From Longimicrobiales bacterium (lineage in GTDB: Bacteria; Gemmatimonadota; Gemmatimonadetes; Longimicrobiales; Gaopeijiaceae), in assembly GCA_965238005.1 (NCBI GenBank), contig OZ250165.1:992001-1056000 (forward strand): a DNA stretch of 64,000 nucleotides, read 5' to 3'. This document shows positions 42,001 through 45,000 of the stretch, piece by piece (the stretch's first letter is position 1; every line of letters starts with the position of its first letter). A program made the position numbers.

Positions 42001-45000
42001 GCTGGATGCCCAGGGAGCGCTCCTGCACAACACCACCGTATTTCCCACCCAGGGTCGGGGCCGGCGCGAGGCAGCCGAGCGGGTCGTCCGGGATCTCGTC
42101 CAACGCTTCTCCCCGGAGGCTGTCGCCGTCGGCAACGGCAAGGCGGGACGAGAGACCGAAGCCTTTATCAAGGACCTGGCCCTCGGGCCCACGGTGATCA
42201 TGGTCGACGAGAGCGGTGCGTCCATCTACAGCGCCAGTGACGTGGCCCGCGAGGAGCTGCCCGAGCACGACCTGACGGTCCGGGGTGCGGTCTCCATCGG
42301 GCGTCGCCTCCAGGATCCCCTGGCCGAGTTGGTGAAGATCGACCCCAAGTCCATCGGCGTAGGCCAGTACCAGCACGACGTGGATCAGACTGCGCTCAGA
42401 TCGGCGTTGGAAGACACCGTGGTGAGTTGCGTCAACGCGGTGGGCGTGGACCTCAACTCCGCCAGCGCGTCCCTTCTCACCTACGTGGCAGGGCTTGGGC
42501 CCGTGCTGGCCAAGAACGTCGTGCGCTGGCGTGACGAGAACGGCGCCTTTCGGACCCGGCGAAACCTGCTGAAGGTACCGCGGCTGGGCGGCAAGGCATT
42601 CGAGCAGGCGGCGGGCTTCCTCCGCATTCCCGACGGGTCACACGCTCTGGATGCGAGCGGCGTGCACCCGGAGCGCTACGCCCTGGTGGAACGTATGGCC
42701 AAGGACCAGGGATGTTCGGTAGGGGACCTGCTCACCGACCCGGGGCGCCGGAGCCGCATCGTCCTCGATCGCTACCTCGGTGAGGGTGTGGGCCGCCCCA
42801 CCCTGGACGACATCCTGGATGAGCTCGCCCGTCCGGGACGAGACCCCCGTCCCGCTTTCGAGGCCTTTTCCTTCGGCGACGTCCACGCCATCAGCGACTT
42901 GAAGCCCGGCATGGTTCTGCCCGGCATCGTCACCAACGTCACGGCCTTCGGTGCCTTCGTGGACATCGGCGTCCACCAAGACGGCCTCGTCCACGTGAGT
43001 CAACTAGCGGATCGCTACGTGAAGGACCCCAACGAGGTCGTCCGCATGCGTCAGCAGGTCCAGGTGCGCGTCCTCCAGGTCGACGTCGAGCGGAAGCGCA
43101 TCGGCCTTTCGATGAAGGAGGGGTAGGGGCGCGTCGGTCCCCTCGCCACCGAAGCGCCCGAGGCGCCTCCGTGAAACCAAGGGGTTGACACTTCCGTACG
43201 ATGCCGTTAGATAGGTCGCCTGGGAGTCGCGTCCCGATGCAGTCAGCCCGGCCACGGCCGTGCTGGTGAGGCGTCGGCGGCGCGATTTTTTTCGCCCTTG
43301 GGCGTGATAGAACGACAGACGGAAACGAGAAAGAGGCACGATTCGATGTTGAGGCAGATCGACAAATCAGAGCGCATCCAACGGCGATGGGTCCCCGCTG
43401 TGGGCGCCCTTACGCCCGGACGGCGCCTCGTAGCGCCGCGATCGGCGTGGGCCGAGGCTGCGCTCGGGATAGGGCCGAATCGATCCGAGCCGAGGAGCCA
43501 CATGAGGCATAGCAGACAGGATAGCAACGTCGCCCAACCGGAATACCGGCCAGCGACAGGAAAGAGACGCGCAGGATGGGAGGGAACCGTGCACTGAGTA
43601 CGGGCCCCGACGGGATCTGCCCGAACGCCCCACCTGCGCAGGAAGCGGGTGGGGCGTTTTTCGTTCAGCGCCCACCCGAGCTGTTTGAAAACGATGCATG
43701 CGCGCCGGCGTTCCAAGCGCCCGGCGGCGTGTGGTGCTGAAAGAAAGAGACGCGACTCCCTGGACGCACCGCACGTCGTCGGTGCGTTTGGGCGGACCAG
43801 CAGACAAGGGGGCTGTAGCTCAGTCGTTAGAGCACTAGCCTCACCATTCATTCGCCCGCTTCTCGCGGGCCGAAGGCAGAGGATTATCGGAACCAAGTGG
43901 TCGCGGGTTCGAGTCCCGCCAGCCCTCCTGCCTCTGTCTGATCGCCGGAAACAAGCTGCGTGAGCAGCGGCATCACTAGGTCTTGTGAGTTGTTTGCAGG
44001 GTAGGTGAGAGGCACCTCTCCGGGTCTCATGACGCGGAAACCGTGGGTTCGATTCCCGCCCCTGCGATCTATGCCCCCGTGGCGGAACTGGTATACGCGG
44101 CCGGCTCAGACCCGGCTCCCGCATTCGGGTCGCAGGTTCGAATCCTGCCGGGGGTACTGGGGTCGGGGCTAGCCCCTGCCGGAAGAATGCCGGCAAGAAG
44201 CCCGGTGAGGAGGAGGGAACTATGGATGGTACCGTCGCATGGGCGGCAACCGGTCTTGAAAACCGGGGCGGCGTAACGGCTGGGGGGTTCGACTCCTCTG
44301 CCTTCCTCTTCTTGGAATGCGAGTCGCATGGTGCGCAAGGTGGTTGCTAGCCACTGAGGGGCTCACGCCTCGTCAGGTTCGATTCCTGGGCATTCCTCTT
44401 TGGAGCGGTATGGGAGCGGTCTCCCGCCGGGTCTCATGAGCCTGGCCTGGTCGGTTCGACTCCGACTGCCGCCATGTGGCCGAGGTCAAACAGGTTGCGG
44501 CACCGGGTTGTGAGCCCGGGGAAGTGGGTTCGAGCCCCACCGGCCACCTTGGGGTGTGATCGTGACTGGTAACGATCCGGTCTCTTAAACCGGTCCATGT
44601 GGGTTCGAGTCCCACCGCCCCGACTATAGACCTGTAGCTCAGCGGTAGAGCATCCGTCTAATACGCGGAAGGCCGAAGGTTCGACTCCTTCTGGGTCTAC
44701 TATTGGAGTGTGGCCGATGTGGCAAGGCACTCGGTTGTTAGCCGAGACCATGTGGGTTCGAGCCGAGCGGTCCAGATGTCTACCGCATATGTGGCCCAGT
44801 TCATCTTCCGCGAGACGACTGAGGATTTCCGAAGGCGACCGCAGGTCAATCCCACCGCTCCAGCTTGGTCTTGTGGGGGAGTCAGGAGTCCCCGCCTGGT
44901 TGTCAGCCAGGAGATCGTGGGTTCGAATCCCACCAGGACCGCTGCTTTATAGGCGATTTTTTGCCCCCTTCGTCTAATGGCTAGGATTGCGGCCTTTCAC

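What a model noticed while it worked through the whole genome (the two positions that open the first line are those of the whole stretch)
43809..43927. A tRNA-like RNA whose anticodon loop is replaced by a conserved 55-nt structured domain
A 119-nt gene has a canonical tRNA acceptor stem, D arm, variable loop and T arm, but where the 7-nt anticodon loop should be it carries a ~55-nt insert that folds into a conserved helix plus a GC-rich hairpin (CGCCCGC-N4-5-GCGGGCCG) followed by a UUAUCG motif. It has no anticodon loop, so it cannot decode; it is a member of an undescribed tRNA-like RNA family of Longimicrobiales, and here it stands at the head of a tRNA gene array. The 8-bp acceptor stem with G-1:C73 (as here) is the hallmark of tRNA-His, so charging by HisRS without decoding is a testable idea.
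Evidence so far: Rfam tRNA model 46.7 bits with 55 unaligned nt between the anticodon-stem strands, no other family. A covariance model from 11 copies run on 150 other Longimicrobiales genomes separates members (78-124 bits, 119-136 nt) from ordinary tRNAs (<=66 bits, 73 nt): members in about 30 genomes, 1 copy here and in G295/G504, 2-3 tandem copies after tRNA-His in most genomes of one genus. On 27 copies 97.2% of cells pair, 12 of 30 pairs show compensatory changes (5 of 7 acceptor pairs, 5 of 8 pairs of the new helix), 0 of 500 shuffles reach this; slid controls 36-52% paired. The base before the 5' end and the discriminator base are complementary in 26 of 27 copies (G/C 16, U/A 8, A/U 2) and G/U in one [...]
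(Added by a program. Inside this text positions count along the whole contig: contig position 992,001 is position 1 of the stretch shown here. "Call 12" and the like, gene names such as g00115 and contig names such as C1 are that model's own, and its searches are not shown. The text may have been shortened before it was handed on; [...] marks where a part breaks off. The agent that wrote the report below was given it as the finding of a first reader that could run no searches.)

Follow-up and report, generated by a model that had tools for sequence, protein, structure and literature searches.

The report
Orphan tRNA-shaped Y RNA gene
The tRNA look-alike with a 55-base insert belongs to a family of Y RNAs, small RNAs that dock onto the bacterial Ro60 protein, but it is built in normal tRNA order and sits in a genome that lacks the Ro60 gene.

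Summary
Rfam tRNA scores 46.7 bits at 43809-43927 with 55 unaligned nt, and my covariance model separates 57 family copies (90.6-132 bits; window copy 117.4) from tRNAs (55 bits or less). 96.9% of cells pair and 14 of 32 pairs show compensatory change.

The family is not undescribed, and it is not confined to Longimicrobiales. In relatives the gene lies just upstream of rsr (Ro60; TROVE plus vWA_Ro60) on the same strand in 42 genomes. The insert carries the Ro60-binding motif GNCGAAN0-1G in a bulged helix, followed by the YUAY motif of YrlA. The D and T stems match the YrlA consensus, and Rfam YrlA aligns at up to 41 bits across neighbouring tandem copies.

So this is a YrlA-type Y RNA in unpermuted tRNA order: the acceptor end is open and the Ro60 handle replaces the anticodon arm. 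I found no description of this wiring, though Chen et al. 2014 list likely members as "putative YrlA". Full-length copies also occur in Myxococcota, Chloroflexota, Armatimonadota and Gemmatimonadaceae.

This genome, a single contig, has no rsr. The copy heads an acquired accessory tRNA array that ends at an IS481-type element, and it alone lacks D-loop GG, so it is probably an orphan. Earlier scan notes report only permuted YrlA arrays elsewhere.

The parts
43808..43927 (+). Whole tRNA-shaped Y RNA gene, from position -1 to position 73; no CCA is encoded
   Evidence: Model R1 scores 117.4 bits over 1-127/127. Rfam tRNA scores 46.7 bits.
43809..43815 (+). Acceptor stem 5' strand (GGGGCUG). It pairs with 43920-43926, and G43808 can pair with C43927 (-1:73).
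   Evidence: Sequence. Six of the 8 acceptor pairs, counting -1:73, change on both sides across the family.
43818..43833 (+). D arm: stem GCUC/GAGC with loop AGUCGUUA. It has G18 but U in place of G19.
   Evidence: The D stem is GCUC/GAGC in 54 of 57 copies. The window copy is the only one of 57 without GG in the D loop.
43835..43838 (+). CUAG, a remnant of the anticodon-stem 5' strand. It pairs weakly with CAAG at 43894-43897 (3 of 4 pairs, with an A-A mismatch).
   Evidence: Rfam alignment; script classification.
43839..43845 (+). P1 helix 5' strand (CCUCACC). It pairs with GGCAGAGG at 43875-43882.
   Evidence: Five of the 8 P1 pairs show compensatory change in the family (helices 3 and 4).
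43846..43852 (+). Pyrimidine-rich 5' side of the internal loop between P1 and P2 (AUUCAUU)
   Evidence: Alignment A3. Most relatives have AACUCCU-like sequence here.
43853..43872 (+). P2 hairpin: CGCCCGC, loop UUCUC, GCGGGCCG, with a bulged C in the 3' strand. This is the presumed Ro60/Rsr docking helix.
   Evidence: Three of the 7 P2 pairs never vary, 3 vary on one side only, and 99.0% of cells pair. GGGCCG is present in 57 of 57 copies.
43869..43875 (+). GCCGAAG, which matches the Ro60-binding motif GNCGAAN0-1G of bacterial Y RNAs
   Evidence: The motif definition comes from Chen et al. 2014 (read). An exact match occurs in 23 of 57 copies, including the window copy.
43884..43889 (+). UUAUCG. 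Its first four bases match the conserved YUAY of YrlA that precedes the V region and T arm.
   Evidence: YUAY is present in 41 of 57 copies. The motif is described in Chen et al. 2014, figure 2 legend.
43898..43919 (+). Variable loop UGGUC and T arm GCGGG-UUCGAGU-CCCGC
   Evidence: Four of the 5 T-stem pairs never vary. The sequence is the same as the T arm of the Rfam YrlA consensus.
43217..43807 (+). Upstream part of the cassette, conserved with G297, G249 and G115. It holds two blocks that end in terminator-like hairpins (about 43221-43296 and 43570-43665).
   Evidence: blastn at 69-81% identity, alignment A4, and a terminator-like site at 43271-43283.
43994..45821 (+). Accessory tRNA array of 17 ARAGORN calls that follows the Y RNA gene
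   Evidence: All anticodons except Ile(AAU) and the unreadable first gene are also present elsewhere in the genome.
46095..47578 (+). IS481-type insertion sequence at the place where relatives carry rsr
   Evidence: Pfam rve, HTH and LZ_Tnp_IS481 domains. Five genomic copies are 99.7-100% identical.

Best explanation
The gene encodes a Y RNA of the YrlA kind, a tRNA mimic that partners the ring-shaped Ro60 orthologue Rsr, but wired in ordinary tRNA order. The acceptor stem is open, and the D arm, variable loop and T arm are standard. The anticodon arm is replaced by the Ro60-binding handle, which consists of helix P1, an asymmetric internal loop, and the bulged helix P2 carrying GGGCCGAAGG. 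P2 is closed by a small loop.

Shown here: the fold and its covariation, the sequence motifs, and the tight linkage of relatives to rsr.

Inferred: the transcript is matured like a tRNA (RNase P, 3' trimming, CCA addition). In relatives it docks on Rsr through P2 and presents its tRNA-like body to a tRNA-binding effector in RNA decay or repair, such as PNPase or RtcB.

In this genome rsr is missing. The gene is the first member of a horizontally acquired cassette, which in relatives reads Y RNA, tRNA array, rsr (followed by rtcB in G249, the one relative where the next gene was identified). Here the cassette ends at an IS481-type element. The window copy is therefore most likely an orphan, either beginning to decay or acting without Rsr.
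For: Linkage to rsr. Pfam finds TROVE, with or without vWA_Ro60, in the ORF next to the RNA in 17 of 29 3-kb loci. In the 401-genome order sample, TROVE is present in 51 genomes. By my reading, the RNA is found in 47 of those 51, and in 3 of the 350 without TROVE. Those 3 are the window's genome G000 and two genomes, G263 and G206, whose copies lie on contigs of about 1.8 kb. In 42 genomes the RNA lies upstream of rsr on the same contig and strand.

Pattern within the window's own family (f1). Only 3 of 256 genomes have TROVE (G115, G249, G297), and all three carry the RNA. There the order is RNA, tRNA array, rsr, and in G249 rtcB follows.

Outside the order, TROVE is adjacent in 5 of 5 genomes tested.

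Homology to YrlA. The window copy has GCCGAAG (GNCGAAN0-1G) and UUAU (YUAY), as defined by Chen et al. 2014. Its D stem GCUC/GAGC and T arm equal the Rfam YrlA consensus. Rfam YrlA aligns at 41.3, 39.6, 36.5, 33.5 and 32.8 bits across adjacent tandem copies. A pattern taken from the 3' half of the family retrieves permuted YrlA-like RNAs in Actinomycetota and Proteobacteria: 14 of 20 loci tested give Rfam YrlA at 33.7-46.7 bits.

Topology. Single copies can only fold in tRNA order. In 27 tandem neighbour pairs, acceptor mismatches are 12 of 378 cells when each unit pairs within itself, against 28 of 189 when strands pair between neighbouring units. For P1 the figures are 29 of 432 against 47 of 216.

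Orphan status. There is no TROVE hit in the single-contig genome, which is 95.85% complete. tblastn with three Rsr proteins from family f1 finds nothing. An IS sits 270 nt after the last tRNA.
Against: No experiment or RNA-seq supports expression, processing or Rsr binding; no RNA run was listed.

The window copy scores only 14.9 bits with Rfam YrlA, whose gathering score is 69. All YrlA hits reported here are below the gathering score.

Only 23 of 57 copies keep the exact GNCGAA motif, because the two A positions vary.

The partner gene is absent from this genome, so the proposed mechanism cannot operate here as stated.

Four TROVE-positive genomes show no copy (G146, G158, G167, G179). Three of them are 77-82% complete.

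The window copy still scores 117 bits, so 'decaying' rests on few changes: U in place of G19, one A-A mismatch in P1, and a weak 4-bp stem.
Confidence: 0.82

Rival explanations
1. One reading: a member of an undescribed, non-decoding tRNA-like RNA family that is charged by HisRS through its G-1:C73 acceptor end and acts as an amino-acid carrier unrelated to Ro60.
For: G-1:C73 is present in the window copy and in 27 of 57 copies. In one genus the copies follow tRNA-His. The acceptor end is open and tRNA-like. CCA is not encoded, but the native tRNAs checked here (Ala, Val) also lack an encoded CCA.
Against: The family is linked to rsr and carries the Y RNA motifs. -1:73 does not pair in 11 of 57 copies. 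14 of 48 copies instead have G3:U70 plus A73, the alanine set. Charging could coexist with a Y RNA role, so this rival stands only as a stand-alone explanation.
Confidence: 0.08
2. A tRNA gene, for example tRNA-Pro(CGG) or tRNA-Val(CAC), interrupted by a new kind of small bacterial intron that is spliced out to give a decoding tRNA.
For: ARAGORN with introns allowed models the gene as tRNA-Pro(cgg) with a 46-nt intron at position 33/34. Relatives with a hairpin have anticodon-like CU-NNN-RN loops.
Against: The ARAGORN model has two mismatches in a 5-bp anticodon stem. No group I intron or other ribozyme family is hit even at E up to 10. In copies without a hairpin, the unpaired flanks vary from 0-7 nt on the 5' side and 8-11 nt on the 3' side, so no common 7-nt loop results. 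The 'intron' is the most conserved part of the gene, carries a protein-binding motif, and is linked to rsr.
Confidence: 0.03
3. The functional RNA is a conventional permuted YrlA whose ends lie in the P2 region and whose acceptor is closed by intergenic spacer; the tRNA-order reading is an artefact of tandem repeats.
For: Rfam YrlA aligns across neighbouring units at up to 41.3 bits. In a few neighbour pairs, pairing between units is as good as pairing within a unit.
Against: The window copy and many others are single units and cannot fold that way. Pairing within a unit is clearly better overall. P2 is closed by a short loop in every copy.
Confidence: 0.03
4. A dead relic with no present function: a pseudogene of a Y RNA, or of a tRNA, carried along with the array.
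For: There is no rsr in the genome. This is the only copy of 57 without GG in the D loop. It has an A-A mismatch in P1 and a weak stem. An IS lies at the cassette end.
Against: It still scores 117.4 bits, mid-range for the family, with P2, GCCGAAG, UUAU, the T arm and the acceptor intact. The upstream region is conserved with relatives. This is a sub-case of the best explanation, not a different identity.
Confidence: 0.3

Closest known systems
YrlA (Rfam RF02553): the tRNA-like Y RNA of Salmonella Typhimurium, Mycobacterium smegmatis and others (Chen et al. 2014, PMC4201824, sections 5, 6, 8, 10 read; Wang et al. 2018, bioRxiv 10.1101/312249, passages and discussion read)
   Same: Both are encoded beside rsr. 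Both carry the GNCGAAN0-1G motif and YUAY before the T arm. The D stem GCUC/GAGC and T arm GCGGG-UUCGA-CCCGC are nearly invariant in both, and a Ro60 handle occupies the anticodon-arm position. M. smegmatis YrlA is even opened by RNase P and receives CCA.
   Different: YrlA is circularly permuted. Its T arm precedes its D arm, its ends lie in the Ro60-binding stem, and its acceptor is a closed loop. Here the order is acceptor, D arm, handle, T arm, acceptor, with an open end and a handle closed by a loop. The window copy scores 14.9 bits against the gathering score of 69, and the window genome has no rsr.
Deinococcus radiodurans Yrn1 (as described in Chen et al. 2014)
   Same: Both strands of the bulged Ro60-binding helix are kept, and the D-like arm precedes the T arm.
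   Different: In Yrn1 the Ro60-binding stem is formed by the RNA ends, at the acceptor position, and an anticodon-like arm lies between the D and T arms. Here the handle lies at the anticodon position and the ends form a true acceptor stem.
b7a-tRNA, the band-7-associated tRNA predicted by Burroughs and Aravind 2016. I know it only through the discussion in Wang et al. 2018; the original paper was not held.
   Same: [quoted passage not shown]
   Different: I could not see its sequence or structure, so I cannot tell whether it has a Ro60 handle. It may overlap with the family described here.
allo-tRNAs (Mukai et al. 2017, seen through the review PMC7609411, section 7 read)
   Same: A non-canonical tRNA body carries very diverse anticodon triplets, some members have G3:U70, and the genes are polycistronic with links to mobile elements.
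   Different: allo-tRNAs have an 8/4 or 9/3 acceptor/T geometry and a long variable arm. They have no Ro60 handle and no link to rsr.

Membership tests
YrlA-type bacterial Y RNA | Encoded within about 4 kb of rsr on the same strand (relatives) | tested here: met
   42 genomes of the order sample have the RNA upstream of the TROVE match on the same contig and strand. TROVE is adjacent in 5 of 5 genomes from other phyla.
YrlA-type bacterial Y RNA | Encoded near rsr (the window copy itself) | tested here: not met
   There is no TROVE match in the single-contig genome and no tblastn hit with three Rsr proteins.
YrlA-type bacterial Y RNA | GNCGAAN0-1G Ro60-binding motif | tested here: met
   GCCGAAG lies at 43869-43875. 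The match is exact in 23 of 57 copies, and GGGCCG is present in 57 of 57.
YrlA-type bacterial Y RNA | Conserved YUAY between the Ro60 handle and the T arm | tested here: met
   UUAU lies at 43884-43887. YUAY is present in 41 of 57 copies.
YrlA-type bacterial Y RNA | Nearly invariant D-stem and T-stem sequences | tested here: met
   The D stem is GCUC/GAGC in 54 of 57 copies, and the T stem GCGGG/CCCGC is almost invariant. Both are identical to the Rfam consensus.
YrlA-type bacterial Y RNA | Permuted topology: T arm 5' of D arm, closed acceptor loop, ends in the Ro60 stem | tested here: not met
   The order is acceptor, D arm, handle, T arm, acceptor. Pairing within a unit beats pairing between neighbouring units.
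YrlA-type bacterial Y RNA | Reaches the Rfam RF02553 gathering score (69 bits) | tested here: not met
   The window copy scores 14.9 bits. The best hit across tandem copies is 41.3 bits.
YrlA-type bacterial Y RNA | Bound by Rsr in vivo | not testable with these tools
   This needs immunoprecipitation or a gel-shift assay.
Canonical decoding tRNA | A 7-nt anticodon loop on a 5-bp stem | tested here: not met
   55 nt lie between the stem strands. Only a 3-of-4 CUAG/CAAG pairing is possible.
Canonical decoding tRNA | G18 G19 in the D loop for the elbow with the T loop | tested here: not met
   The D loop is AGUCGUUA. This is the only copy of 57 without GG.
tRNA-His | G-1 paired to C73 | tested here: met
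   G43808 and C43927. GC at this pair in 27 of 57 copies.
tRNA-His | GUG anticodon | tested here: not met
   The copy has no anticodon loop. True tRNA-His genes lie at 44477-44548 and elsewhere in the genome.
Intron-containing tRNA | A recognisable intron class, with a proper anticodon arm after removal | tested here: not met
   No intron or ribozyme family is hit at E up to 10. The ARAGORN intron model leaves 2 mismatches in the stem.

The most novel reading that the evidence does not exclude
Unpermuted Y RNAs are matured exactly like tRNAs and receive CCA. Many are aminoacylated: alanine through G3:U70 plus A73 in the hairpin-bearing copies, and histidine-like G-1:C73 in the others. The hairpin-bearing copies display a genuine anticodon-type loop with freely changing triplets: U33 in 24 of 24 copies, 13 different triplets in the order sample, and G37 following G36. 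The RNA would thus hold Rsr, together with PNPase or RtcB, on a bait that mimics whichever tRNA is attacked by anticodon nucleases. This open, tRNA-order form would also be the ancestor from which the permuted YrlA arose, by reading across two tandem units. That is the 'dimeric tRNA' origin proposed by Sim and Wolin, as cited in Wang et al. 2018.
Probability: 0.2. Interest if true: 0.8.

Novelty: new variant of a known kind. Interest (0 to 1): 0.55.

Why it matters
Y RNAs and Ro60 are conserved from bacteria to humans, yet it remains unclear what the tRNA-like half of bacterial Y RNAs does. A widespread form with a true open acceptor end would make three questions directly testable. Some of these copies also carry an alanine identity pair and an anticodon-type loop.

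The questions are whether Y RNAs are CCA-tailed or charged, whether they act as decoys or sensors in tRNA damage, and whether the permuted YrlA evolved from tandem tRNA-like genes.

There is also a practical point. These genes are currently either missed, or mis-called as intron-containing tRNAs when ARAGORN is run with introns allowed. Here that model gives tRNA-Pro(cgg).

The window copy shows that such an RNA can persist, at least for a time, at the head of a mobile tRNA array after its protein partner is lost.

Tried and rejected
No RNA sequencing run holding this stretch was listed (no RNA holder listed), so expression, ends and splicing could not be examined.

Earlier notes near this place: none.

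Papers not held: the Burroughs and Aravind 2016 paper and the 2020 Annual Review on bacterial Ro60. I therefore cannot exclude that the unpermuted form, or b7a-tRNA, is described there.

A first collection pattern had too few plain bases.

The sigma-70 consensus scan found no promoter-like site just upstream of the gene. This is uninformative for this phylum.

I looked by eye for a bulge-helix-bulge splice motif around the insert and found none.

I searched for rsr remnants downstream of the array and found none. The two small tblastn hits inside the array come from an ORF call that runs over tRNA genes.

Complex prediction, the structure tools and the protein homology searches were not needed.
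Full report
**Observation.** The Rfam tRNA model matches window 43809-43927 (+) at 46.7 bits, with 55 nt left out between the two anticodon-stem strands. 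Default ARAGORN does not call the gene. Folded alone, the 121-nt stretch gives an 8-bp acceptor stem including G-1:C73, a D arm, a helix enclosing a GC-rich hairpin, and a T arm, at -50.3 kcal/mol with z = -2.6. The own genome holds one copy.

**The family.** A blastn search of 401 genomes of the order found full-length relatives in about 50 of them. A regular-expression pass and then a covariance model (R1, built on 48 copies) recovered 57 copies in the window plus 29 loci. These score 90.6-132.1 bits, and the window copy scores 117.4. Ordinary tRNAs in the same DNA score 54.8 bits or less. On the 57 copies, 96.9% of cells form standard pairs and 14 of 32 pairs change on both sides. None of 500 shuffles reaches any of the five measures, and slid controls give 36-53%.
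- The outer helix P1 shows compensatory change at 5 of 8 pairs.
- The inner helix P2 is almost invariant.

**Two architectures.**
- In 24 of 57 copies the conserved domain is followed by a 4-bp hairpin, usually UCGA/UCGA. It is perfect in 19 copies and has one mismatch in 5. Its 7-nt loop has the form CU-NNN-RN, with U at the second position in all 24 and 13 different middle triplets.
- At least 28 copies have no such loop. Instead a 5-bp stem with compensatory changes encloses the domain.
- The window copy belongs to neither group cleanly. It has only a 3-of-4 CUAG/CAAG pairing and no hairpin.

**What the domain is.** Pfam on the flanking ORFs gave TROVE, often with the Ro60 vWA domain, next to the RNA in 17 of 29 loci. 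This protein is Rsr, the bacterial Ro60 orthologue.

A TROVE search of the same 401 genomes found it in 51. Comparing, the RNA is present in 47 of those 51, and in 42 it lies upstream of rsr on the same contig and strand. Of the 350 genomes without TROVE, only three have the RNA: the window genome, and two genomes (G263, G206) whose copies sit on contigs of about 1.8 kb. The tallies include four unpublished genomes (G002, G030, G081, G147), which show neither feature.

In the window's own family f1, TROVE occurs in 3 of 256 genomes, and all three carry the RNA. There the order is RNA, accessory tRNA array, rsr. In G249 rtcB follows rsr.

**Homology with YrlA.** Chen et al. 2014 (PMC4201824; sections 5, 6, 8 and 10 read) define bacterial Y RNAs by three features:
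- a GNCGAAN0-1G motif, resembling the metazoan GGUCCGA that Ro60 contacts;
- a conserved YUAY ahead of the V region and T arm;
- nearly invariant D and T arms.

The window copy has GCCGAAG at 43869-43875 inside a helix with a bulged C, and UUAU at 43884-43887. Its D stem is GCUC/GAGC and its T arm is GCGGG-UUCGAGU-CCCGC, as in the Rfam YrlA consensus.

The Rfam YrlA model itself aligns at 32.8-41.3 bits (gathering score 69) across the 3' half of one unit and the 5' half of the next in tandem arrays.
- Among the 80 loci listed, R1 finds full-length tRNA-order copies at 75 bits or more. They come from Gemmatimonadaceae, Myxococcota (including a complete Sorangium genome), Chloroflexota, Armatimonadota and some Actinomycetota MAGs.
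- 14 of 20 low-scoring loci tested are permuted YrlA-like RNAs by Rfam, at 33.7-46.7 bits.
- TROVE is adjacent in 5 of 5 non-Longimicrobiales genomes tested.

**Topology.** Known YrlA RNAs are circularly permuted. The T arm comes first, the acceptor is a closed loop, and the ends lie in the Ro60 stem (Wang et al. 2018, passages read; Rfam structure line). Here the order is that of a tRNA gene, and the Ro60 handle is closed by a short loop. Single copies cannot fold any other way. In 27 tandem neighbour pairs, pairing within a unit is clearly better than pairing between units: acceptor mismatches are 12 of 378 against 28 of 189, and P1 mismatches are 29 of 432 against 47 of 216.

The supplementary table of Chen et al. 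lists 'putative YrlA' of 123 and 190 nt beside Ro60 in two Sorangium cellulosum strains, with weak E-values. Members of this form were therefore probably seen, but I found no description of the different wiring. Two relevant papers were not held. Earlier notes of this scan describe only permuted YrlA arrays beside rsr in other genomes.

**The window copy in context.** The genome has 68 tRNA genes. The 17 that follow the RNA at 43994-45821 duplicate anticodons found elsewhere, except Ile(AAU) and one unreadable gene. The array is therefore accessory. Both other genomes of the genus in the sample lack the RNA.

About 600 nt upstream of the RNA are conserved with the cassettes of G297, G249 and G115. 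Where those cassettes continue into rsr, the window has an IS481-type element, one of five copies that are 99.7-100% identical.

No TROVE match and no Rsr remnant exists in this single-contig genome, which is 95.85% complete. An RtcB gene lies far away. The window copy is the only one of 57 without GG in the D loop. It also has an A-A mismatch in P1.

**Mechanism.**
- Shown: a conserved fold, the Y RNA motifs, and linkage of relatives to rsr.
- Inferred from the YrlA and Yrn1 literature: in relatives the RNA docks on Rsr through the bulged helix and offers its tRNA-like body to a tRNA-binding effector in RNA decay or repair.
- Inferred from the gene form, and from M. smegmatis YrlA, which is cut by RNase P and receives CCA (Chen et al. 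2014): this RNA is matured as a tRNA.
- In this genome the partner is absent, so the copy is most likely an orphan.

**Rivals.**
- An intron-containing tRNA is unlikely. ARAGORN's intron model (tRNA-Pro, 46-nt intron) leaves two mismatches in the stem. No intron family is hit. The 'intron' is the most conserved part of the gene.
- HisRS charging remains possible but untested. 14 of the 48 copies examined carry G3:U70 with A73, the alanine identity set (named in the review PMC7609411, section 7 read).

**Limits.** No expression data exist. Every YrlA score is below the gathering score. The classes were assigned by simple script rules. Related genomes are not independent, so the co-occurrence counts overstate the statistical weight.

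Noticed in passing
window 43994-45821: This is an accessory array of 17 tRNA genes with mostly low Rfam scores (28-65 bits). It includes an unusual tRNA-Ile(AAU) and a first gene whose anticodon ARAGORN cannot read (a CAU-like loop). Unannotated gaps at 44777-44866, 45120-45282 and 45509-45609 might hold degenerate tRNAs.
   Followed up: partly
window 46095-47578: An IS481-type insertion sequence is present in five copies at 99.7-100% identity in the genome, so it was recently active. One copy lies 270 nt after the last tRNA of the array, where relatives carry rsr.
   Followed up: partly
window 43221-43296 and 43570-43665: Two blocks upstream of the Y RNA gene are conserved in G297, G249 and G115. 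Each ends in a hairpin plus T-run, like small terminated transcripts. Their function is unknown.
   Followed up: partly
L017:1891-1988, L015:2186-2299, L033:1766-1875 and ten more loci: A second RNA type lies between the tRNA-shaped Y RNAs and rsr in family f2. It has the same Ro60 handle and a T arm, but no D arm, and a long stem formed by its ends (R1 scores 32-45 bits). It resembles a YrlB-like partner.
   Followed up: partly
L015, L018, L019, L020, L023, L029 and the third tandem copy in many g73 loci: The hairpin-bearing copies often carry G3:U70 with A73. In genus g103 their acceptor stem is the same as that of the window genome's tRNA-Ala. 14 of 48 copies have both features.
   Followed up: partly
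hairpin loops of 28 distinct copies (loci L009-L036 and L043-L121): The 7-nt loops follow anticodon-loop rules. U33 is present in all of them. G37 occurs in 5 of 6 loops with G36, against 2 of 22 of the other loops (Fisher p = 0.001; the copies are not independent).
   Followed up: partly
L040:3433-4668 (G249): RtcB is encoded directly after rsr, which gives the order Y RNA, tRNA array, rsr, rtcB.
   Followed up: no
G000:C1:4451264-4453598: The genome has a second, apparently native, cluster of 17 tRNA genes, with one more tRNA gene about 1.6 kb beyond it on the other strand.
   Followed up: no
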